Below are positions 35,768 to 53,520 of a stretch of 64,000 nucleotides of DNA, piece by piece. The translations under genes and the position numbers were made by a program. The stretch's first letter is position 1, and each line of letters opens with the position of its first letter. Under the pieces are notes generated by a model. It searched no databases and was not told the origin of the DNA. It saw only the letters and a program-made list of their open reading frames with translations. Origin of the DNA: the human T2T-CHM13v2.0 reference genome, Homo sapiens; the NCBI GenBank assembly GCA_009914755.4, contig CP086569.2, forward strand, positions 448,001 through 512,000. The letters are read 5' to 3'.

Positions 35768-36595
<828 letters not shown>

Positions 36596-37140: not shown

Positions 37141-39919
37141 TGACGGCTTAGGATGTGTGTTTCTGTCTCTGCCTGTCTGCCTTGTATTTACGGTCACCCA
37201 GACGCACAGAGGAGCCGTCTCCACGCGCCTTCCCAGCGCTCAGCGCCTGCCGGGCCCCCGGAGATCACGGGAAGACTCGAGGCTGCGTGGTAGGAGACGG
37301 GAAGGCCCCGGGTCAGCTCGGTTCTGTTTCCTTTAAGGAACCCTTCATTATTATTTCATTGTTTTCCTTTGAACGTCGAGGCTTGATCTTGGCGAAAGCT
37401 GTTGGGTCCATAAAAACCACTCCCGTGAGCGGAGGTGGCCGGGATCTGGATGGGGCGCGAGGGGCCCCGGGGAAGCTGGCGGCTTCGCGGGCGCGTCCTA
37501 AGTCAAGGTTGTCAGAGCGCAGCCGGTTGTGCGCGGCCCGGGGGAGCTCCCCTCTGGCCCTTCCTCCTGAGACCTCAGTGGTGGGTCGTCCCGTGGTGGA
37601 AATCGGGGAGTAAGAGGCTCAGAGAGAGGGGCTGGCCCCGGGGATCTCTGTGCACACACGACAACTGGGCGGCATACATCTTAAGAATAAAATGGGCTGG
37701 CTGTGTCGGGGCACAGCTGGAGACGGCTATGGACGCCTGTTATGTTTTCATTACAAAGACGCAGAGAATCTAGCCTCGGCTTTTGCTGATTCGCAGAGTT
37801 GAGGTGCGAGGGTGAATGCCCCAAAGGTAATTCTTCCTAAGACTCTGGGGCTACCTGCTCTCCGGGGCCCTGCATTTGGGGTGTGGAGTGGCCCCGGGAA
37901 ATAGCCCTTGTATTCGTAGGAGGCACCAGGCAGCTTCCCAAGGCCCTGACTTTGTCGAAGCAGAAAGCTGTGGCTACGGTTTACAAAGCAGTCCCCGGTT
38001 TCTGACCGTCTAAGAGGCAGGAGCCCAGCCTGCCTTTGACAGTGAGAGGAGTTCCTCCCTACACACTGCTGCGGGCACCCGGCACTGTAATTCATACACA
38101 GAGAGTTGGCCTTCCTGGACGCAAGGCTGGGAGCCGCTTGAGGGCCTGCGTGTAATTTAAGAGGGTTCGCAGCGCCCGGCGGCCGCTTCTGTGGGGTTGC
38201 TTTTTGGTTGTCCTTCGCAGACACCGTTTTGCTCCTCTGAACTCTCTCTTCTCCCCCTGGCCGTGGACCCGGGAGAGCAAAGTGTCCTCCAGACCTTTCG
38301 AAAGTGAGAGGAAAATAAAGACCAGGCCAAAGACCCAGGGCCACAGGAGAGGAGACAGAGAGTCCCCGTTACATTTTCCCCTTGGCTGGGTGCAGAAAGA
38401 CCCCCGGGCCAGGACTGCCACCCAGGCTACTATTTATTCATCAGATCCAAGTTAAATCGAGGTTGGAGGGCAGGGGAGAGTCTGAGGTTACCGTGGAAGC
38501 CTGGAGTTTTTGGGAACAGCGTGTCCCCGCCGAGCCTGGGAGCCCGTGGGTTCTGCAAAGCCTGCGGGTGTTTGAGGACTTTGAAGACCAGTTTGTCAGT
38601 TGGGCTCAATTCCTGGGGTTCAGACTTAGAGAAATGAAGGAGGGAGAGCTGGGGTCGTCTCCAGGAAACGATTCACTTGGGGAGAAGGAATGGAGTGTTC
38701 TTGCAGGCACGTGTCTGATAGGAGGTGAAACAGAATGTGAAATCCACGTTGGAGTAAGCGTCCAGCGCTGAATGTAGCTCGGGGTGGGGTGGGAGGGCCC
38801 TGGTGTGGATCGTGGAAGGAAGAAAGACAGAACAGGGTGCTAGTATTTACCCCGTTCCCTGTAGACACCCTGGATTTGTCAGCTTTGCAAGCTTCTTGGT
38901 TGCAGCGGCCTTGCCTGTGCCCCTTTGAGACTGTTTCCAGACTAAACTTCCAAATGTCAGCCCCTTACCCTTGACAGCAAGGGACATCTCATTAGGGCAT
39001 CGCGTGCTTCTCATCTGTGCTCAGCAGGCCCGAGATAGGAACAGAGGGGCGTTGGAGATGCCACTTCCACCAGCCCTGGGTTGAAGGGGAGCGAGGGAGA
39101 CACCTTTTACTTAAACCCCTGAGCTTGGTCAGAGAGGCTGAATGTCTAAAATGAGGAAGAAAAGGTTTTTCACCTGGAAACGCTTGAGGGCTGAGTCTTC
39201 TGCCCTTCTGACTCCCCCAGCAAATACAGACAGGTCACCAACTACTGGAGATGAGAAAGTGCCATTTTTGGCACACTCTGGTGGGGTAGGTGCCCGACCG
39301 CGTGTGAAAAAGTGGGAAGGAGAGATTTCTGCGCACGCGGTTCAGCCCCCAGGCGCGGTGGCGCATTCAGGTACTCAGACGCGGTTCTGCTGTTCTGCTG
39401 AGAAACAGGCTTCGGGTAGGGGCTCCTAGCTCCGCCAGATCGCGGAGGGACCCCCAGCCCTCCTGCGCTGCAGCGGTGGGGATAGCGTCTCTCCGTAGGC
39501 CTAGAATCTGCAACCCGCCCCGGGTCCTCCCCGTGTCCTTCCCGGGCGTCCCGCCGGGGATCCCACAGTTGGCAGCTCTTCCTCAAATTCTTTCCCTTAA
39601 AAATAGGATTTGACACCCCACTCTCCTTAAAAAAAAAAATAAGAAAAAAAGGTTAGGTTATGTCAACAGAGGTGAAGTGGATAATTGAGGAAACGATTCT
39701 GAGATGAGGCCAAGAAAACAACGCTCGTGCAAAGCCCAGGTTTTTGGGAAAGCAGCGAGTATCCTCCTCGGCTTTTGCCTTATGGACCCCACGCAGTTTT
39801 TGCGTCAAAGCGCATTGGTTTTCGAGGGCCCCCTTTCCACCGCGGGATGCACGAAGGGGTTCGCCACGTTGCGCAAAACCTCCCCGGCCTCAGCCCTGTG
39901 CCCTCCGCTCCCCACGCAG

Positions 39920-40339: not shown

Positions 40340-42175
40340 CAAACAAATATATATACATATATATTATACAAATAACAAATAAATATATATGTTATACAGA
40401 TGGGTATATCGTATATATTATAGATATTTGTTCGTCCTTGGTGCAAAGACACCCGGTGAACCCATATATTGGCTCCTGACTGCCTTCGGTTCCCCTGGGA
40501 TTGGTTATAGGGGCAACACATGCAAACAAAACTTTCCCTGGATTATACTTAGGAGACGAAGCTACAGATGCGTTTGATCCAGAGTGTTTTACAAGATTTT
40601 TCATTTAAAAAAAAATGTGTCTTTTGGCCCCTGATTCCCCTCCGTCTTCCCGTGTGGCTGCATTGAAAAGGTTTCCTTAGGATGAAAGGAGAGGGGTGTC
40701 CTCTGTCCCTAGGTGGAGAGAAACAGGGTCTTCTCTTTCCTCCGTTTTTTCACCTACCGTTTCTATCTCCCTCCTCCCCTCTCCAGCCCTGTCCTCTGCT
40801 ACAAACCACCCCCTCCTCCCTCCGGCTGTGGGGAGCGCAGGAGCACGTTGGGCATCTGGATGAGCGGAGACTATTAGCGGGGCACGGGGGCTCCCCGAGG
40901 AGCGCGCGAATTCACGCTGCCCCATGAGACCAGGCACCGGGGGGCGGAGGGGCCTTGGGTGTCCGCAGAGGGACGGGCGGGCAGAGCCTTCCTCCGCATT
41001 CTAAACATTCACTTAAAGGTATGAGTTTATTTCAGGGGTGCTGCTGGGAGAGCCTCCAAATGGCTTCTTCCAGCCCCTGCCTGACAGTTCAGCTCCCCTG
41101 GAAGGTCAACTCCTCTAGTCCTTTCTCCTGGTTCTGGGCAGGACAGAAGTGGGGGGAGGGAGAGAGAGAGAGAGAGAGAGAGAGACGGTCAGGATCCCCG
41201 GACCCTGGGGAACCCGTCAAAAATAAATGAAATTAAGATTGCCGACCAGAGAGAGAACCGTGACAAAGCAAACGGCGTTCAAAGCAAAGAGACGAACTGA
41301 AAGCCCGTTCCCGTAGGACTGGTTATGAGGTCAACACATTCAAACACAGCTTGCTCTGGATTTTGCTGAGCAGAGGAAGATACAGATGCATTTGATCCAA
41401 AGTGTGTTACATCTTTCATTATATGTGTGTCTATATATATAAACATATATAAATATATAAACATACATAAATGTATGTAAATATATATAATCTATATACA
41501 TATATAAATATATAAACACATATATAATATATAAATCTATAAACATATATAATATATAAACATAAATATATAAACATATATAATATATAAATATATTAAC
41601 ATATATAAAATATGTATAAATATATATAAACATATAAACATATATAAATATATAAACATATAAATATATAAACATATATAAATATATACAAACATATTGT
41701 ATATATATAAATATATATAAAAACATATATATACATATAAAAATATATATAAACATATATACATATAAAGAAATATATATAAACATATATACATATAAAT
41801 ATACATATATAAACATATATATACATAAAATATATATAAACATATATACATATAAAAATATATATATATTAACATATATATACATATAAAAATATATATA
41901 TTAACATATATATACATATAAAAATATATATATATTTTTGGCCCCTGATTCCCTTCGGTTCCTGTGGGATGGGTGATTGAGTCAACACATTCAAACACAA
42001 CTTTTCCATCGATGTTGCTTAGGAGATGAGGATACAGATGCGTTTGATGGAGAGGGTTTTACAAGCTCTTTCATTTAAATATATATATATATATATATAT
42101 ATTTTTTGGCTCCTGATTCTCTTCCGTCTTCCCATGTGGCTGCATTTTAAAAGGCTTCCCTAAGATCGTTACGAT
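40340..42175. repeat. Intron-3 segmental tandem triplication: a unique block of about 200 bp repeated at about 40445-40680, 41285-41420 and 41935-42175, each associated with AT-rich minisatellites
   Basis: Shared block ...ggttcc..tgggat.ggt.at.ag..caacacattcaaacacaac.tt.c.tggat..tgct.aggaga.ga.gatacagatgcgtttgatc.agagtgttttacaag.t.tttcattt... then ttttggcccctgattcc..tccgtcttcccgtgtggctgcatt.aaaagg.ttcc.tagga. Confidence 0.7.
41400..41940. repeat. AT-rich minisatellite ((ATATAAACAT)n/(TATATAAA)n variants) of about 540 bp
   Basis: aaacatatataaatatataaacatacataaatgtatgtaaatatatataa... continuous. Confidence 0.85.
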
Positions 42176-42399: not shown

Positions 42400-43450
42400 T
42401 TAAAGTTTCGCTAAAGGGGACATCGAGTTTATGTGTCATCTCCTGGTGTCTGTGTGCCTGGGATCTGCAATATATCCCAGCCCTTGATGTACTGTTTCTA
42501 TAAAAATAAATTACTTGTAATTTAATTCCACACTATTTCTTTCCGTAGTCTATTACCGACGAGAGCACGTTAGTTCAGCTGCGGAAAATTGGTTGTGGGG
42601 TGTGTGCGGACCCCGAGAACGCCCTAAAATAAAGACAAATCGGGGACAAGCTGGGGGTTATCGATTGCAGGGGTCGCATGAAAATTTAACGACGGTAAAT
42701 AATAATAAAAACAAACATGGGAATGCAATAAAAGACATAATTCTCCATCGCCGCGGGGGGAAAGGATCCTATAGTAAAGGCGAGTGCGCTTTGAGGGGTC
42801 ATAAAAATCAATTAGTTCCAACACCCACGTCCCGCGTTGAGGGGACGGGGACGAGCAGGGACAGAAAAAGAAACCATATTTGAATCCCATCTCTCTGTGA
42901 ATTCTTGGGTCACATGCGTCTCAGTACAGCCCGTCCCGTGCTGTGACCGGATAGAGTTTCAATTTACTGTGGAAATTTGCTGTAAATAAATTGAGCATCC
43001 GATAGAAGCTGTTGCTGATTAACCTTTTATTTTTAGCGTGGCCCTGCAAAGTCGTATCACCCAGCTGTCAGGCTTCTAATCGAAAGTTATGAGACCACGG
43101 TGAGGGGCAGGCGGTAATTTAATTACAACAAATATCTTTGGGTTTATGGCGCAGAGCTAAATTAAATGTCATTATTCACTGTCTGTAATGGAAATCAAAA
43201 GGAAATCGCATTACGGCATTTGGGAAAGAAAGCGGGGAGTGCTCTTTAATGAAGAAATAACTGTCTTAAGCAGTGTCACACACTTCACTTACCATATTCG
43301 GGCCTAATTGGAATGGATCGTGAATCACTCCAAGACTGATTTATTAGCGCTTCACGCAGCGGCTAATTCATCACTTGTATTCTTCATCATTTTTTTTTTT
43401 CCTCTCGCCGTGTTGAAGGGAGAGTGAATGAGGCTTTCCACGTTTCAGGA
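42400..43450 (+). promoter_or_regulatory. Repeat-free intron-3 block with enhancer-like composition (candidate conserved non-coding element)
   Basis: No Alu/L1/simple repeats. Many TAAT/ATTA homeodomain-type cores (gtaatttaattacaac, ctaaattaaatgtcattattcac, ctaattggaatgg, ggctaattcatcac). CpGs retained in AT-rich context (cgattg, cgacgg, cgccgcgg, cgtcccgcg). Confidence 0.3.
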
Positions 43451-44857
43451 GGATTTTCTTTTTTGAAAAATGCCCTTCCAGAGGCTTTTGGGTGGCTGGC
43501 TTGCTTTCTGGGCCCTGGAGGAGACAGGCGGAGAGTCCAGGTGGGCATGGAGAGGCACAGTGGCAGGTCACCTGGATGGTCAGTGGAGGTGGAGGTCTGA
43601 AGGCGCCAGCTTTGGAAATTATTGGTGAATTTCGATGTCAGCACCAGGCAGGGGCCTTTTTGGCGGGGGTGTGAGGGAGGATGACTTTGCTGGGAAACAG
43701 GATCAGGTTCTCCAGGCGCACTGCAGCCCGGTAGGACCCACTTTGGAAATGAAAAGCCAGTTCCGAAAGCTGGGCTGGAAGCTTCCGTGTTGGGTTCAAG
43801 AGCAAGTTCACGTTGCGCTGTGTAGACTCCTGGCTGCTCCCAAACTCTGAGGGTTTTCTGAGGTTCCCTTCATAGGGGCACCGGCCCTGGGCCATGCACA
43901 GTGCGTAAGGGTGGCTGTGGGCCGAGGGACCCAGCACGTGTTTTGCCCACAACAGCCGGAGTGACTGGTTCACTCACCGCCTTGGCGGAGGACGCCTGTT
44001 CTCTGGACGAATCATTTCTCTTGGGTGGTGACTGCCTTGTGGGTCAAGGTGCAGGTTTTCTGCCACAGAAAACCTGTTAGGAGGAATTAAGCGACTAAGA
44101 CTGTCAGGGAGGTGGTGGTGGGGGAGAGGAGGGGGTGGTGTCCAGATTACCAGGCATAGGCTAAACTGCCTGCACTCTCCAGCTGGTCTGTCTGTGGAGG
44201 AGGGGATTGTCAATACTGGGAGAGCAGAGGAGGCTCGTAGGAGGTGAGAGGGGGTGGAATTTGCATGCAAATCTTCACATGAGGCCTGTGTGAATTTCTC
44301 CAGCCTCCTGAGGGTCCCCTGCGCTATTGCACTCAACTTCTTGATAGTTTACCCCAAGACTCAGAAGTCCTTAGAGGGGCAGAATGCCCCCACCACAAAG
44401 CCTGCTATCCTTGGGCGTCCTCAGGACCCTTGGTCATGAATGGGACCCTTTCATGTATGGGGACCCTTGGTAATATGAATGGGACGCCTTCAGCTCCCCA
44501 GGGCTTCCGAGGAGGCCGAGAAGGGCAAAGACACTTCCGAGGAGGCCGAGAAGGGCAAAGACATTTTCTGGGCTTGGTGTGTCAAGAGCTAGATTGGAGA
44601 AGGGGCTGGATTTGGAACTCTTTAGCCATCAGCTCACCCTCTCCGTTTGTGGCTAAAGTCTGAAGGTGGAAACTTCGGTTCTCCTACAGGGTCTACAGGA
44701 GTTGGGGGGCGGGGCGCCCACACAGAACGCTGGAAAGTTCGACAGTCCACTTCCACTGGCTCGGAACTCACTTTTTCACCTTAAGTTCATCAGCGGTAAC
44801 GCATAGGTCTCACTTAGGCAGGGCACGGATGATTTAACAATTTCTACTTCTAGGTCA

Positions 44858-46131: not shown

Positions 46132-46220
46132 GCGTCATCTTGGGCACAGCCAACCACCTAGACGCCTGCCGAGTGGCACCCTACGTCAACATGGGAGCCT
46201 TACGGATGCCTTTCCAACAG
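46132..46220 (+). CDS. SHOX: SHOX exon 5 (89 bp): (G)[29 protein letters not shown]
   Basis: Acceptor tttggacacag|gcgtc. Donor ccaacag|gtagct at 46220/46221. Ends in phase 0. Confidence 0.95.
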
Positions 46221-46840: not shown

Positions 46841-47812
46841 AGGCTGTAAAAATCCACTTTTGGGAAGGTGAACACACACAAGCCCAAACAGAAATCTGAC
46901 AAAAACCAGAGGGGTGAAAAGTCCACACAGTCAGGCACCCCCACCTGGCTTGCTGCCTGGTTAAGAAGGGCGCAGATGCCTGTGCCTGGATACCAGAGAT
47001 GGGACAGACACCCATTCCCTTTTCATCACCACCCCCGAGTGCCCGAGGGCCTGGGGCGTCTGCCTGGCCCCTGGCCCCTGGCTTGGGCTCTGCACCTCTG
47101 AGCTGGAGACACCCTACTCAGCTCCCCACTTACTTTGGAGTGAGCAGCGCTTGGGTGCCCAGCGTGGATTTGGGGCTTCCAGGGAGTCGGGGTTCGGTCG
47201 CGGAGCCCAAGCTTCCCAAGGGCGCCCCCGCCCTGCCCTGGCTTAGTGGTGGGGATGGGATGGGGGGAAGCGGGGAGCTGCGTGGAAGGAGGTGAAGGGT
47301 CACAGGAGGAGAGAGCGCAGCGCCCACGTGCGCCCTGCCTGAACGCGCAGCGCAGCGCCCGGCTGCGGTGCCCCTTGCCCCTTCGGTCCCTAATTTGGGG
47401 ATCGGGAGTGCATGCGCGGGCGGAACGGGCTTGGGGGGGGGGCTCTGGCAGGGCGGACGCGTGGCCTCCCTTCTTCACCGTTTTATTCCAAGGGGACAGG
47501 CTGGGGATTGTATTTGGGCGCGTGTTTGGCTGAGGGTGCAGGGACTTGGGGGGTGGCGGTGGGGAGCGCGGAAGGTATAAACGTATAAATCATAAGTAAA
47601 CAACTCAGAAATGGACCCCGAGCGCTGGTCGCCGCTAGCTCTCCAGCTCTCCCTGGCCCAGGCCCGAAGGAGAGGGGTCCGCATCCCTCCGCGGTTCTCC
47701 TCTCCTGGGTACCTGGCCTTGAGGTGGGGGAACGAGCCTACTTCTTGTACCGTCTTTTGCCGACGGCGGGACCCAGTGAAATTAGGCCGTTGGAGCCCGC
47801 AGGCCTGCCTGG

Positions 47813-49125
47813 CTTTGCGCACCGGAGTCTTGGGGACCTGGTGTCCCCGGGAAAAACTTGGGGACCTGGTATCCCCGGGAGAGGCTTGGGGACCTGGTGT
47901 CCCGGGAGAGGCTTGGGTACCTGGTTTCTCTGGAAGAGGCTTGGACACCTGGTGTCCTGGGAGGGCCTTTGGGACCTGGTGTCCTGGGAGAGGCTTGGAG
48001 ATCTGTTGTCCTGGGAGAGGCTTGGGGACCTGGTGTCCCTGGAGAGGCTTGGGGACCTGGTGACCTTGGAGAGGCTTGGAGACCTGGTGTTCTGGGAGAG
48101 GCTTGGGGACCTGGTGTTCTGGGAGAGGCTTGGGGACCTGGTGTCTCTGGAAGAGGCTTGGACACCTGGTGACCCGGGAGGGCCTTGGGGATCTGGTGTC
48201 CCGGGAGAGCCTTGGGGACCTGGTGTCCTGGGAGAGGCTTGGGGACCTGGTGACCTTGGAGAGGCTTGGGGACCTGGTGTCCTGAGAGAGCCTTGGGGAT
48301 CTGGTGTCCCAGGAGAGGCTTGGGGACCTGGTGTCTCTGGAAGAGGCTTGGACACCTGGTGTCCTGGGGAGAGGCTTGGGGACCTGGTGTCCTGGGAGAG
48401 GCTTGGGGACCTGGTGTCCTGGGAGAGGCTTGGAGATCTGGTGAGCCGGGAGAGGCTTGGGGACCTGGTGTCCCGGGAGAGGCTTGGGGACTTGGTGTCC
48501 CGGGAGAGGCTTGAACACCTGGTGTCCCAGGAGAGGCTTGGGGACCTGGTGACCTTGGAGAGGCCTGGGGACCTGGTGACCCGGGAGAGCCTTGGGGACC
48601 TGGTGTCCTGGGGAGAGCCTTGGGGACCTGGTGACCTTGGAGAGGCTTGGGGACCTGGTGTCTCGGGAGTGCCTTGGGGACCTAGTGACCCGGGAGAGGC
48701 TTGGGGACCTGGTGTCCCGGGAGAGGCTTGGGGACCTGGTGTCCTGGGAGAGCCTTGGGGATCTGGTGTCCTGGGGAGAGGCTGGGGGACCTGGTGTCTC
48801 GGGAGAGAGCCTTGGGGACCTGGTGACCCGGGAGAGGCTTGGACACCTGGTGTCCCGGGAGAGGCTTGGGGACCTGGTGACCCGGGAGAGCCTTGGGGAC
48901 CTGGTGTCCTGGGGAGAGGCTGGGGGACCTGGTGTCTCGGGAGAGAGCCTTGGGGACCTGGTGACCCGGGAGAGGCTTGGACACCTGGTGTCCCGGGAGA
49001 GGCTTGGGAGCCTGGTGTCCCGGGAGAGCCTTGGGGACCAGGTGACCTTGGAGAGGCTTGGGGACCTGGTGATCTTGGAGAGGCTTGGGGACCTGGTGTC
49101 TCGGGAGAGGTTACGGGGGCTGGTT
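47813..49125. repeat. 27-bp GC-rich minisatellite, about 49 copies (1.3 kb), in SHOX intron 5, ending 343 bp upstream of the exon 6a acceptor
   Basis: Unit gagaggcttggggacctggtgtcc.gg with period exactly 27 bp (for example starts at 47881 and 47908). Variants ggacacctgg, gtgaccttgg, gagagccttgg. Stop-free in several frames, which explains the 560-760-aa ORFs on both strands. Confidence 0.95.
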
Positions 49126-49467
49126 GGGGGAGAGAACGTTGTGAGCCAAAGTCCCTGAATCCCTGCGAAGAGAGCGCATCGGGAGCTCCCCCTGAGGGCG
49201 TTCCATTTGTGGACCCCCCTCCCATGCGCTTTGCAGGGAGCTGTTCGGATTCCCCTGGCCCGGCTCCCGCGGATGCATCCAGTGGCAGCGCCAATTCTGG
49301 GCCAGGGGGAAGGAGGAAAGGCGGGTGTGGGGTGGTCTCCACGGCTGGAGAAGGGGCGACGCTCCCTAGGGGAGAAGAGGCACGTTGGGGGTTTCCGGGG
49401 GCGCGGGGCGGAGCAGGCCCCCCAGTCCCCATCCTGCGCCCTCACCCCGCCGGGTCCGCTCCCGCAG

Positions 49468-49713
49468 GTCCAGGCTCAGCTGCAGCTGGAAGGCGTGGCC
49501 CACGCGCACCCGCACCTGCACCCGCACCTGGCGGCGCACGCGCCCTACCTGATGTTCCCCCCGCCGCCCTTCGGGCTGCCCATCGCGTCGCTGGCCGAGT
49601 CCGCCTCGGCCGCCGCCGTGGTCGCCGCCGCCGCCAAAAGCAACAGCAAGAATTCCAGCATCGCCGACCTGCGGCTCAAGGCGCGGAAGCACGCGGAGGC
49701 CCTGGGGCTCTGA
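49468..49713 (+). CDS. SHOX: SHOX exon 6a coding part (SHOXa C-terminus): [81 protein letters not shown] (includes the OAR motif)
   Basis: Acceptor ccgctcccgcag|gtccag at 49467/49468. TGA stop at 49711-49713. Total 292 aa across exons 2-6a. Confidence 0.95.

Positions 49714-51870
<2,157 letters not shown>

Positions 51871-52115: not shown

Positions 52116-53520
<1,405 letters not shown>

What the first reader, a model, noticed from the sequence alone, without database searches (positions are those of the whole stretch)
47813..49125. 27-bp GC-rich minisatellite (about 49 copies) in intron 5, ending 343 bp from the exon 6a splice acceptor
The period is exactly 27 bp (9 codons) and there are no stop codons in most frames on either strand. 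This yields spurious 560-760-aa ORFs with nonapeptide periodicity (GEAWGPGVL / RLGDLVSWE on +; PGHQVPKPL / SPSLSRDTR on -). One + strand ORF (47724-50003) even runs through exon 6a in the wrong frame. Unit variants (ggacacctgg, gtgaccttgg, gagagccttgg) are interspersed irregularly, suggesting ongoing unequal exchange or conversion. Its proximity to the 6a acceptor and branch region means length alleles could influence SHOXa versus SHOXb terminal exon choice. GC-rich minisatellites are also classic meiotic instability sites.
Basis: partly seen in the sequence, partly recalled or inferred. Interest (0 to 1): 0.6.

Follow-up and report, generated by a model that had tools for sequence, protein, structure and literature searches.

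The report
Old intronic minisatellite in SHOX
A 1.3-kb block of about 47 copies of a 27-base GC-rich unit sits in the last intron of the human growth gene SHOX; it is an ordinary non-coding minisatellite, at least about 40 million years old, whose copy number changes between primates, and nothing here shows that it affects the gene.

Summary
Tandem Repeats Finder gives 47.1 copies of a 27-bp unit at 47825-49110, in SHOX intron 5. The array ends 357 bp (343 bp if the degenerate last unit is counted) before the exon 6a acceptor. The long ORFs are by-products of a stop-free GC-rich unit.

New here: the same array, with the same consensus, lies at the same place in chimpanzee (43 copies), orangutans (47-53), siamang (25) and macaques (44-121). 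Capuchins have 14-18 copies of a 28-bp unit. Two lemurs have only a single-copy progenitor. The array therefore arose in the anthropoid stem.

Turnover is shown in three ways:
- a human-specific 138-bp (5-unit) duplication;
- a colinear 5' half but a reshuffled 3' half against chimpanzee;
- very different X and Y alleles within single macaque assemblies.

Ape alleles look stable: two chimpanzee alleles are identical. Human length polymorphism at this array could not be shown directly.

The splicing idea has no support. The array is about 300 nt or more from the probable branch region. Arrays of 0.4-3.3 kb coexist with an intact SHOXa reading frame.

Verdict: an ordinary PAR1 minisatellite, of low interest. 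The published sex-biased methylated region in intron 5-exon 6a starts inside its 3' part.

The parts
47824..49110 (+). 27-bp GC-rich minisatellite: 47 units (36 of 27 bp, 9 of 28 bp, 2 of 29 bp). Consensus AGAGGCTTGGGGACCTGGTGTCCCGGG, with the G-rich strand being the SHOX sense strand.
   Evidence: TRF. Unit table. GC 65%, GC skew +0.37, CpG observed/expected 0.18. Core motif confined to this interval.
49106..49132 (+). Degenerate 48th unit at the 3' edge (AGAGGTTACGGGGGCTGGTTGGGGGAG). It holds the only match to the PRDM9 13-mer CCNCCNTNNCCNC found between 46000 and 50500 (49107-49119, minus strand).
   Evidence: One of only 6 matches in the 64-kb window, so its position may be chance.
48749..49024 (+). 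Two tandem copies of a 138-bp, five-unit block (48749-48886 and 48887-49024), 134/138 identical. It has no counterpart in the chimpanzee array, so it is a recent duplication on the human lineage.
47824..48504 (+). 5' part of the array (units 1-25). The unit order is colinear with chimpanzee (13 of 25 units identical). It is poor in CpG: 6 CpG-bearing units among the first 23.
48505..49110 (+). 3' part of the array (units 26-47). No unit is identical in the alignment with chimpanzee (0 of 22). It is richer in CpG: 15 CpG-bearing units among the last 24. Its last ~583 bp fall inside the published intron 5-exon 6a differentially methylated region.
   Evidence: Fisher test, 13/25 against 0/22: p = 4e-5.
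49111..49467 (+). Unique spacer between the array and exon 6a. The last ~170 bp (49298-49467) are conserved in macaques and hold the pyrimidine tract, a candidate branch sequence (ccctcac) and the acceptor ...ctcccgcag|G.
46132..46220 (+). SHOX exon 5 (acceptor cacag|GCGTC, donor CAACAG|gtagct).
49468..49713 (+). Coding part of SHOX exon 6a (81 codons plus stop, OAR motif).
63859..63903 (+). Coding part of the alternative terminal exon 6b ([14 protein letters not shown]), which resembles Alu sequence.
   Evidence: The chimpanzee gene range ends at the homologous point.
47724..50003 (+). Spurious 759-aa ORF through the array, out of frame with exon 6a.
   Evidence: No homologue among 5.8 billion protein clusters. 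No Pfam family above threshold.
47475..49445 (-). Spurious antisense ORFs: 656 aa (47475-49445) and 564 aa (47738-49432). The 564-aa ORF gives a compositional Pfam collagen hit from its PGxPGx periodicity.
   Evidence: The frame is not conserved (28-bp units in capuchins). Unit variability shows no clear codon-like periodicity.

Best explanation
This is a non-coding, GC-rich intronic minisatellite (VNTR) of the subtelomeric PAR1 type, most likely with no function of its own.

Origin (shown): a single-copy ~28-bp segment of SHOX intron 5, still single-copy in lemurs, was amplified in tandem in the anthropoid stem. That places the event after the split from strepsirrhines and before the platyrrhine-catarrhine split.

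Maintenance (events shown, mechanism inferred): the array has since been kept going by repeated gain and loss of blocks of one to several units. The likely mechanisms are unequal sister-chromatid or interallelic exchange, gene conversion and replication slippage. This keeps the consensus unit almost unchanged while scrambling the order of variant units and changing copy number.

Other features:
- The one CpG per unit decays to TpG or CpA, which fits germline methylation (inferred).
- Against chimpanzee, turnover is concentrated in the 3' half, next to exon 6a (shown).
- The long ORFs are an automatic consequence of a stop-free unit (shown).
For: Anatomy:
- 47 units with interspersed variants.
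- A 138-bp five-unit duplication, 134/138 identical.
- CpG observed/expected is 0.18, against 0.49-0.63 in the flanking intron. Of the 47 units, 21 keep CpG, 21 have TpG and 2 have CpA.

Orthologous arrays at the same intron position, between the same flanks:
- chimpanzee 43.1 copies;
- orangutans 52.7 and 46.7;
- siamang 25.1;
- macaque assemblies 44-121;
- capuchins 13.7 and 17.9, with a 28-bp unit.

Origin: mouse lemur and ring-tailed lemur have a 1.45-kb intron 5 without an array. They carry one aligned copy of the unit at the position of the human 5' junction.

Unit-map alignments:
- human against chimpanzee: 13/25 identical units in the 5' part and 0/22 in the 3' part;
- human against orangutan: 2 identical units;
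- the two orangutan assemblies: 29 identical units, with indels of 1-6 units.
- Within single macaque assemblies, X and Y alleles are 106 against 66, 121 against 44, and 65 against 60 units.

Not coding:
- no homologue of the + ORF;
- the frame is not conserved, given 28-29-bp units;
- unit variability shows no clear codon-like periodicity;
- by my own calculation, about 25% of random 27-mers of 65% GC are stop-free in all six frames.

No Rfam family matches.
Against: - Neutrality is inferred, not shown. The array has persisted for roughly 40 My with an almost unchanged consensus, and two unit variants (GTGTCC/GTGACC and AGAGGC/AGAGCC) are kept in every catarrhine examined. A constraint could also produce this.
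- The array is the most G-skewed GC-rich kilobase in the window.
- Its 3' part lies inside a published differentially methylated region.
- Human allelic variation at this array was not observed directly.
- Ape alleles are surprisingly uniform, so 'hypervariable' may not apply to hominoids.
Confidence: 0.85

Rival explanations
1. The array is a cis-regulator of terminal-exon choice or 3'-end processing. In this view, a 1.3-kb stretch of G-rich pre-mRNA and non-template DNA just upstream of exon 6a (G-runs that could bind hnRNP H/F, R-loops or long-loop G-quadruplexes that could slow RNA polymerase II) favours use of exon 6a over exon 6b in a length-dependent way.
For: - 74 runs of three or more G on the sense strand, and GC skew of +0.30 to +0.40 over the array.
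- It is the strongest G-skew among GC-rich 1-kb windows of the locus.
- Its position next to exon 6a is kept in all anthropoids examined.
- An intronic VNTR in CUL4A is reported to alter splicing (PMC11701250).
Against: - The array is 343-357 nt from the acceptor in apes, outside the probable branch and pyrimidine region.
- There is no canonical G4 motif with loops of 7 nt or less.
- Copy number ranges from 14 to 121 while the SHOXa CDS stays intact. Lemurs, which lack the array, keep the same SHOXa CDS with exon 6a.
- No expression data were available.
Confidence: 0.07
2. The array is part of the meiotic recombination machinery of PAR1. It would act either as a PRDM9-bound hotspot or as a small analogue of the mouse mo-2 minisatellite, which seeds the double-strand-break machinery.
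For: - SHOX lies in PAR1 and contains one of the hottest sperm-typed hotspots. Many PRDM9 peaks in PAR1 are reported to be minisatellite-like (PMC4102438).
- mo-2 arrays act in cis in the mouse PAR (PMC11039559).
- Turnover against chimpanzee is polar, towards the 3' end.
- A PRDM9 13-mer sits exactly at the 3' edge, at 49107-49119.
Against: - The consensus unit has no 13-mer match.
- The single edge match is one of six in the window and may be chance.
- The array is 1.3 kb, far smaller than the large mo-2 arrays as I recall them.
- The unit occurs nowhere else in the 64-kb window.
- The position of the published SHOX hotspot relative to the array could not be retrieved.
- Polarity is seen in only one species pair.
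Confidence: 0.05
3. The repeat is (or was) protein-coding or exonised: a nonapeptide-repeat or collagen-like product from one of the long ORFs.
For: - ORFs of 564-759 aa.
- A Pfam collagen hit, E = 7e-9 and 35.8 bits (cut-off 27.2), on the 564-aa antisense ORF.
Against: - The + ORF has no homologue in 5.8 billion protein clusters.
- Eleven human units and most capuchin units are not multiples of 3.
- Copy number varies 14-121.
- Unit variability shows no clear codon-like periodicity.
- Stop-free units are expected by chance at this GC content.
- The array lies inside an intron of a well-defined gene. The collagen hit comes from PGx periodicity on the antisense strand.
Confidence: 0.01
4. The array is a methylation-sensitive element. 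Its one CpG per unit would contribute to the sex-biased gene-body methylation reported around exon 6a and, through it, to SHOX dosage.
For: - The published male-dominant methylated region, hg19 chrX:604,185-606,039 (bioRxiv 10.1101/2021.08.23.457290), starts about 583 bp inside the 3' part of the array. I mapped it using the paper's own primers.
- That 3' part is the CpG-richer half.
Against: - CpG observed/expected is only 0.18, so the array is not a CpG island and looks like constitutively methylated, decaying DNA.
- The RRBS data come from 2+2 samples, and short reads map ambiguously in a VNTR.
- The authors interpret the region as ordinary gene-body methylation.
Confidence: 0.04

Closest known systems
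Classical GC-rich hypervariable minisatellites of subtelomeric and pseudoautosomal DNA (Jeffreys-type VNTRs such as MS32/D1S8, MS205, CEB1 and B6.7, and the PAR1 minisatellites)
   Same: - Unit of tens of bp, GC-rich with a G-rich strand.
- Interspersed variant units.
- Location in PAR1.
- Multi-unit gains and losses.
- Signs of polarity (against chimpanzee).
- Large allelic differences in macaques.
   Different: - No PRDM9 13-mer or classical core in the unit.
- The ape alleles sampled are nearly invariant, so the mutation rate may be well below that of the classical hypervariable loci.
- Germline instability was not measured.
Intronic VNTRs that change splicing or expression, e.g. the CUL4A intronic VNTR (as cited in PMC11701250)
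   Same: A VNTR inside an intron of an expressed gene, so it is part of the pre-mRNA.
   Different: No length-phenotype or length-isoform association is known here. The array does not touch any splice signal. No cryptic exon is evident.
Mouse mo-2 minisatellite (31-bp unit), a cis-acting determinant of break-machinery aggregation in the mouse PAR (bioRxiv 10.1101/536136; PMC11039559)
   Same: A GC-rich minisatellite of about 30 bp in a pseudoautosomal region with obligatory male crossover.
   Different: - mo-2 forms large arrays at several chromosome ends.
- This array is 0.4-3.3 kb, a single locus within the window, inside a gene.
- No binding data exist. Sequence similarity to mo-2 was not tested.
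ACAN 57-bp VNTR associated with height (PMC12237279)
   Same: A VNTR in a gene that controls skeletal growth.
   Different: The ACAN repeat is coding and changes the protein. The SHOX array is intronic and non-coding.

Membership tests
GC-rich minisatellite / VNTR | Head-to-tail tandem array of a 10-100-bp unit, far beyond chance | tested here: met
   TRF: period 27, 47.1 copies, score 1699. The core motif matches 45 times against 0.06 expected.
GC-rich minisatellite / VNTR | GC-rich with purine/G strand asymmetry | tested here: met
   GC 65%, GC skew +0.37, 74 G-runs against 19 C-runs.
GC-rich minisatellite / VNTR | Variant units interspersed along the array | tested here: met
   34-36 distinct unit sequences among 47-48 units. 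There are dimorphic sites at unit positions 5 and 21, plus CpG decay.
GC-rich minisatellite / VNTR | Copy-number difference between alleles within a species (primates other than human) | tested here: met
   Macaque assemblies, X against Y haplotypes: 106 vs 66, 121 vs 44, 65 vs 60 units. Not seen in chimpanzee (two identical alleles), siamang or Bornean orangutan.
GC-rich minisatellite / VNTR | Copy-number polymorphism in humans at this array | tested here: inconclusive
   hg19 is 225 bp longer than the window between intron 2 and the exon 6a 3'UTR. Five human haplotypes differ in the length from the start codon (ATG) to the exon 6b stop. These differences could not be assigned to this array. 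Human DNA could not be fetched.
Hypervariable (recombination-driven) minisatellite | High germline mutation rate with polarity towards a flanking hotspot | not testable with these tools
   Only an indirect hint: against chimpanzee, 13/25 identical units in the 5' part and 0/22 in the 3' part.
Hypervariable (recombination-driven) minisatellite | Unit contains the PRDM9 13-mer CCNCCNTNNCCNC | tested here: not met
   No match inside the array. There is one match in the degenerate edge unit, at 49107-49119.
Protein-coding tandem repeat (collagen-like or nonapeptide repeat) | Reading frame conserved between units and between species | tested here: not met
   Eleven human units are 28-29 bp. Capuchin units are mostly 28-31 bp.
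Protein-coding tandem repeat (collagen-like or nonapeptide repeat) | Homologous proteins exist, with codon-position bias of substitutions | tested here: not met
   No hit for the 759-aa + ORF. Variability by codon phase is 0.06, 0.09 and 0.11, with no clear codon-like pattern. The antisense ORFs were not searched against the protein databases. The Pfam collagen hit is compositional.
Splicing-modifying intronic VNTR | Overlaps or abuts splice signals, or creates cryptic exons | tested here: not met
   The array ends 343-357 nt upstream of the acceptor. The conserved ~170 nt before exon 6a lie outside it.
Splicing-modifying intronic VNTR | Array length correlates with isoform ratio or expression | not testable with these tools
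   No expression data were accessible.
mo-2-like PAR break-machinery array | Large arrays shared by the PAR and other chromosome ends that bind REC114/MEI4/ANKRD31 | not testable with these tools
   Array size (0.4-3.3 kb) and single occurrence in the window argue against membership. Binding cannot be tested here.

The most novel reading that the evidence does not exclude
Array length or composition modulates SHOX output. A longer G-skewed array just upstream of exon 6a would slow or pause transcription (R-loops, long-loop G4s, dense methylation). That would shift the balance between the functional SHOXa terminal exon and the Alu-like exon 6b, making the array a hidden contributor to variation in stature or to the variable penetrance of SHOX deficiency.
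Probability: 0.06. Interest if true: 0.6.

Novelty: new member of a known kind. Interest (0 to 1): 0.2.

Why it matters
SHOX dosage controls limb growth, and much of the variability of SHOX-related short stature is unexplained. A multi-allelic repeat inside the gene is the sort of variant that short-read studies miss. As it stands, the array matters mostly in three practical ways:
- it generates false ORFs;
- short reads, bisulfite reads included, may map ambiguously within it;
- it is a possible source of length differences between assemblies.

The comparative series assembled here runs from a single-copy progenitor in lemurs, through 14-18 units of 28 bp in capuchins, to 25-121 units of 27 bp in catarrhines. 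It is a clean small example of the birth and long-term turnover of a minisatellite.

Tried and rejected
- **Coding reading.** Rejected. The + ORF has no homologue, there is no Pfam family apart from a compositional collagen hit on the antisense ORF, and the frame is not conserved.
- **Hairpin or cruciform from the GGGAC...GTCCC palindrome in each unit.** Rejected. Five units folded as DNA give z = -1.1 against shuffles.
- **Canonical G-quadruplex.** There are 0 motifs with loops of 7 nt or less, and only 12 with loops up to 12 nt.
- **Multi-copy PRDM9-motif array.** Rejected.
- **Known RNA family.** Nothing above chance.
- **Human or other alleles in metagenome contigs.** A 37-mer gave no hit. 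A 17-mer gave only single, chance-like matches in environmental contigs.
- **Human assemblies.** Look-ups of the human/chimpanzee SHOXa protein returned DNA only when 1 or 2 places were requested, which yielded two chimpanzee alleles.
- **Literature.**
  - No paper in the library contains the unit sequence.
  - Searches for SHOX with minisatellite, VNTR, or intron 5 plus repeat found nothing about this array.
  - May et al. 2002, which describes the SHOX hotspot, is not held, so the hotspot could not be placed relative to the array.
  - Two searches gave nothing useful.
- **Localising the 225-bp difference between hg19 and the window.** It failed for lack of a published coordinate anchor between intron 3 and intron 5.
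Full report
**1. Observation**

Tandem Repeats Finder reports one array at 47825-49110: period 27, 47.1 copies, 84% matches, 1% indels, score 1699.

Anchoring on the CTGGT core and segmenting by dynamic programming both give 47 units, plus a degenerate 48th at 49106-49132. Unit lengths are 27 bp (36 units), 28 bp (9) and 29 bp (2). The period is therefore predominantly, not exactly, 27 bp.

A 19-nt core of the unit occurs 45 times with up to 3 mismatches, all inside the array. Only 0.06 matches are expected by chance in the window.

Three of the six frames are stop-free across the array and a fourth has one stop.

**2. Context**

The window encodes human SHOXa without a single mismatch.
- tblastn of the SHOXa sequence finds exon 2 (start codon, ATG, at 36200), exon 3, exon 4, exon 5 (46132-46220) and exon 6a (49468-49713).
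- The database names the same 292-aa sequence as SHOX_HUMAN / isoform SHOXa, identical across Homininae.
- Exon 6a carries the OAR motif.
- The alternative terminal exon 6b ([14 protein letters not shown], Alu-like) is at 63859-63903.

Intron 5 is 3,247 bp and the array fills 40% of it.

**3. The ORFs are by-products**

The consensus unit has no stop trinucleotide in any phase on either strand. At 65% GC, about a quarter of random 27-mers share this property (my own calculation from base frequencies).

Further points against coding:
- The 759-aa + ORF has no homologue among 5.8 billion protein clusters.
- Pfam gives nothing above threshold for the + ORF and the 656-aa - ORF. The 564-aa antisense ORF passes the collagen threshold (35.8 bits), but only because its PGxPGx stretches imitate Gly-X-Y.
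- Eleven human units shift the frame.
- Capuchin units are mostly 28-31 bp.
- Variability along the unit shows no clear codon-like periodicity: 0.06, 0.09 and 0.11 by phase. It is dominated by the CpG site and two dimorphic positions.

No Rfam family matches the array.

**4. Internal anatomy**
- The array has 65% GC, and the G-rich strand is the sense strand (skew +0.37). It contains 74 runs of three or more G. It is the most G-skewed of the GC-rich 1-kb windows in the locus.
- Each unit has one CpG site (CCCGGG). It is intact in 21 units, TpG in 21 and CpA in 2. CpG observed/expected is 0.18, against 0.49-0.63 in the rest of the intron and 0.99 in exon 6a. This is the signature of methylated, decaying CpGs (inference).
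- The 3' half keeps more CpG than the 5' half (15 against 6 units).
- A five-unit, 138-bp block is duplicated in tandem at 48749-49024, with 134/138 identity. This is direct evidence of recent multi-unit duplication.
- The short palindrome in each unit does not give unusual folding (z = -1.1).
- There is no canonical G4 motif.
- The PRDM9 13-mer is absent from the units. One copy lies in the degenerate edge unit, at 49107-49119.

**5. Comparative evidence (new here)**

I looked up the genomic places that encode SHOX proteins in public primate assemblies, and located exon 5, exon 6a and the array flanks by BLAST. The species attached to some accession numbers come from the protein names returned and from my own knowledge of the assemblies.

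The same array lies at the same position, between the same flanks:

| Species / assembly | Copies |
|---|---|
| Chimpanzee (both alleles) | 43.1 |
| Orangutan, first assembly | 52.7 |
| Orangutan, second assembly (X and Y) | 46.7 |
| Siamang (X and Y) | 25.1 |
| Macaque, one assembly (X and Y identical) | about 55 |
| Macaque, three assemblies (X / Y) | 106 / 66, 44 / 121, 60 / 65 |
| Capuchins (28-bp unit, CCCCGGG) | 13.7 and 17.9 |

The first two human units share the capuchin 28-bp form. The majority-rule 27-bp consensus is the same in human, chimpanzee, one orangutan assembly and most macaque alleles. It differs by a single base in four other arrays (TRF, or majority rule).

Mouse lemur and ring-tailed lemur have a 1.45-kb intron 5 with no array. 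One copy of the unit (GCAGACTCGGGGAGCTGGTGTCCCTGGG in Lemur catta) aligns with the 5' junction of the human array.

So a single-copy intronic segment was amplified after the haplorrhine-strepsirrhine split and before the platyrrhine-catarrhine split, roughly 40 My ago or earlier (dates from general knowledge). The dominant unit later changed from 28 to 27 bp in catarrhines.

**6. Turnover**

Unit-level alignments show the following.
- Human against chimpanzee: the 5' part is colinear, with distinctive variant units in the same order (13 of 25 units identical). None of the 22 units in the 3' part is identical (Fisher p = 4e-5). The human 138-bp duplication has no chimpanzee counterpart.
- Human against orangutan: only 2 identical aligned units, so the internal order has been completely replaced while the consensus stayed the same.
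- The two orangutan assemblies share 29 identical units and differ by blocks of 1-6 units along the whole array.
- Macaque X and Y alleles from the same assembly differ strongly in length and order.

Ape alleles are uniform by contrast.
- Two chimpanzee alleles from different assemblies are identical over all 1,176 bp.
- Siamang X and Y differ by one substitution, as do Bornean orangutan X and Y.

The array is therefore unstable on an evolutionary scale, and clearly polymorphic where it is long (macaques). It is not demonstrably hypervariable in hominoids.

**7. Human polymorphism**

I could not obtain a second human allele.

The indirect evidence is this.
- The distance from the ATG to the exon 6b stop is 27,704 bp in the window. 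It is 27,932 bp in GRCh38 and 27,674, 27,452 and 27,157 bp in three other human assemblies.
- Bisulfite primers and hg19 coordinates from bioRxiv 10.1101/2021.08.23.457290 give two anchors. The exon 6a amplicon chrX:605,642-605,771 maps to window 49984-50113. The intron 2 amplicon 593,482-593,694 maps to 38049-38261.
- The two offsets differ by 225 bp, so hg19 is 225 bp longer than the window between the anchors.
- That interval contains both a long (TA)n tract in intron 3 and this array, so the difference cannot be assigned to either.

**8. The splicing hypothesis**

The array does not reach the branch region. The pyrimidine tract and the only candidate branch sequence lie in the last ~50 nt. 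The ~170 nt before exon 6a are conserved in macaques and lie outside the array. In macaques the array comes to within 169 bp of exon 6a, because the equivalent of human 49111-49297 is missing.

Arrays from 0.4 to 3.3 kb coexist with an intact SHOXa reading frame. Lemurs, which lack the array, keep the same SHOXa CDS with exon 6a.

A length effect through G-runs, R-loops or polymerase pausing remains conceivable, given the strong G-skew. An intronic VNTR in CUL4A is reported to alter splicing (PMC11701250). Nothing here supports such an effect at SHOX, and I give it about 6-7%.

**9. Methylation and recombination**

The preprint cited above reports male-dominant methylation of hg19 chrX:604,185-606,039, described as 'intron 5-exon 6a'. 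With the downstream offset, this region starts 941 bp before exon 6a, about 583 bp inside the 3', CpG-richer part of the array. Its authors do not mention the repeat. Short RRBS reads inside a VNTR map ambiguously, so that result needs long-read confirmation.

On recombination:
- SHOX contains a very hot sperm-typed hotspot.
- Many PRDM9 peaks in PAR1 are reported to be minisatellite-like (PMC4102438).
- Mouse PARs use the mo-2 minisatellite in cis (PMC11039559).

The hotspot could not be placed relative to this array. The unit has no PRDM9 motif, and the array is far smaller than the large mo-2 arrays as I recall them.

**10. Verdict**

This is a real, ordinary, non-coding GC-rich PAR1 minisatellite.
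The account of spurious ORFs and repeat turnover is supported.
- The suggested effect on the choice between exon 6a and exon 6b is unsupported and rests on an overstated proximity.
- No publication describing this array was found in the searchable library, but arrays of this kind are well known.
- The comparative history (birth from a single-copy segment, age of about 40 My or more, 14-121 copies, polar turnover against chimpanzee) is a tidy result of modest interest.

Noticed in passing
window 3756-5743: A second large minisatellite about 30 kb upstream of the SHOX start codon: 59 copies of a 34-bp unit (GGATATTACAAAGTACCTTCTCAAGGGTGGGGGA), 87% matches, with 67- and 101-bp higher-order periods.
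   Followed up: no
window 52259-53402; L017 16400-17626; L139 16340-17590: Between exons 6a and 6b, an 82-bp fragment that looks Alu-derived is repeated 14 times at 97% identity. Chimpanzee alleles have 15 copies, or 13 plus 2, so this array differs between the two chimpanzee alleles although the 27-bp array does not.
   Followed up: partly
window 60915-61608; L017 25082-27778: A 132-bp array that looks Alu-derived, upstream of exon 6b, has 5.2 copies in the window but 17.7 and 14.7 in the two chimpanzee alleles.
   Followed up: no
window 63859-63903: The coding part of exon 6b ([14 protein letters not shown]) resembles Alu sequence. A similar sequence occurs at 14333 in the window. The SHOXa/SHOXb alternative is therefore probably primate-specific.
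   Followed up: partly
L001 9515-11042, L002 9580-10528; window 43397-43458: Siamang intron 3 carries a 57-bp minisatellite with 26 copies on X and 16 on Y. The unit is single-copy in the human window. This is a second, independent case of a single-copy SHOX intron segment amplified in one lineage.
   Followed up: partly
window 38049-38261 and 49984-50113: The window is not the hg19/GRCh38 haplotype. Published hg19 coordinates of two amplicons give offsets of 555,433 and 555,658, so hg19 is 225 bp longer between them. Five human haplotypes have five different lengths from the start codon (ATG) to the exon 6b stop.
   Followed up: partly
window 41432-41935, 27926-29128, 31135-32575, 33522-34893: Very long simple repeats lie in and upstream of SHOX: (TA)n of about 500 bp in intron 3, and (AG)n or (CT)n-rich tracts of 1.2-1.4 kb upstream of the start codon. 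These are likely major sources of length differences between assemblies.
   Followed up: no
L014 13079-13441, L015 12517-12883: Capuchins carry a 43-bp GC-rich tandem repeat (about 8 copies) starting about 135 bp after the exon 6a stop codon, in what would be the 3'UTR. TRF reports no such array at the corresponding place in the human window.
   Followed up: no
window 49107-49119 (minus strand): One of only six matches in the window to the PRDM9 13-mer CCNCCNTNNCCNC lies exactly in the degenerate last unit of the array, at the end where turnover against chimpanzee is greatest. It may be chance.
   Followed up: partly
window 47824-49110, units with GTGACC: About a quarter of human units, and 13-44% of units in other catarrhines, carry GTGACC instead of GTGTCC. 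On the minus strand this reads GGGTCAccAGGTCC, which resembles two nuclear-receptor half-sites. The resemblance is recalled from memory and was not tested.
   Followed up: no
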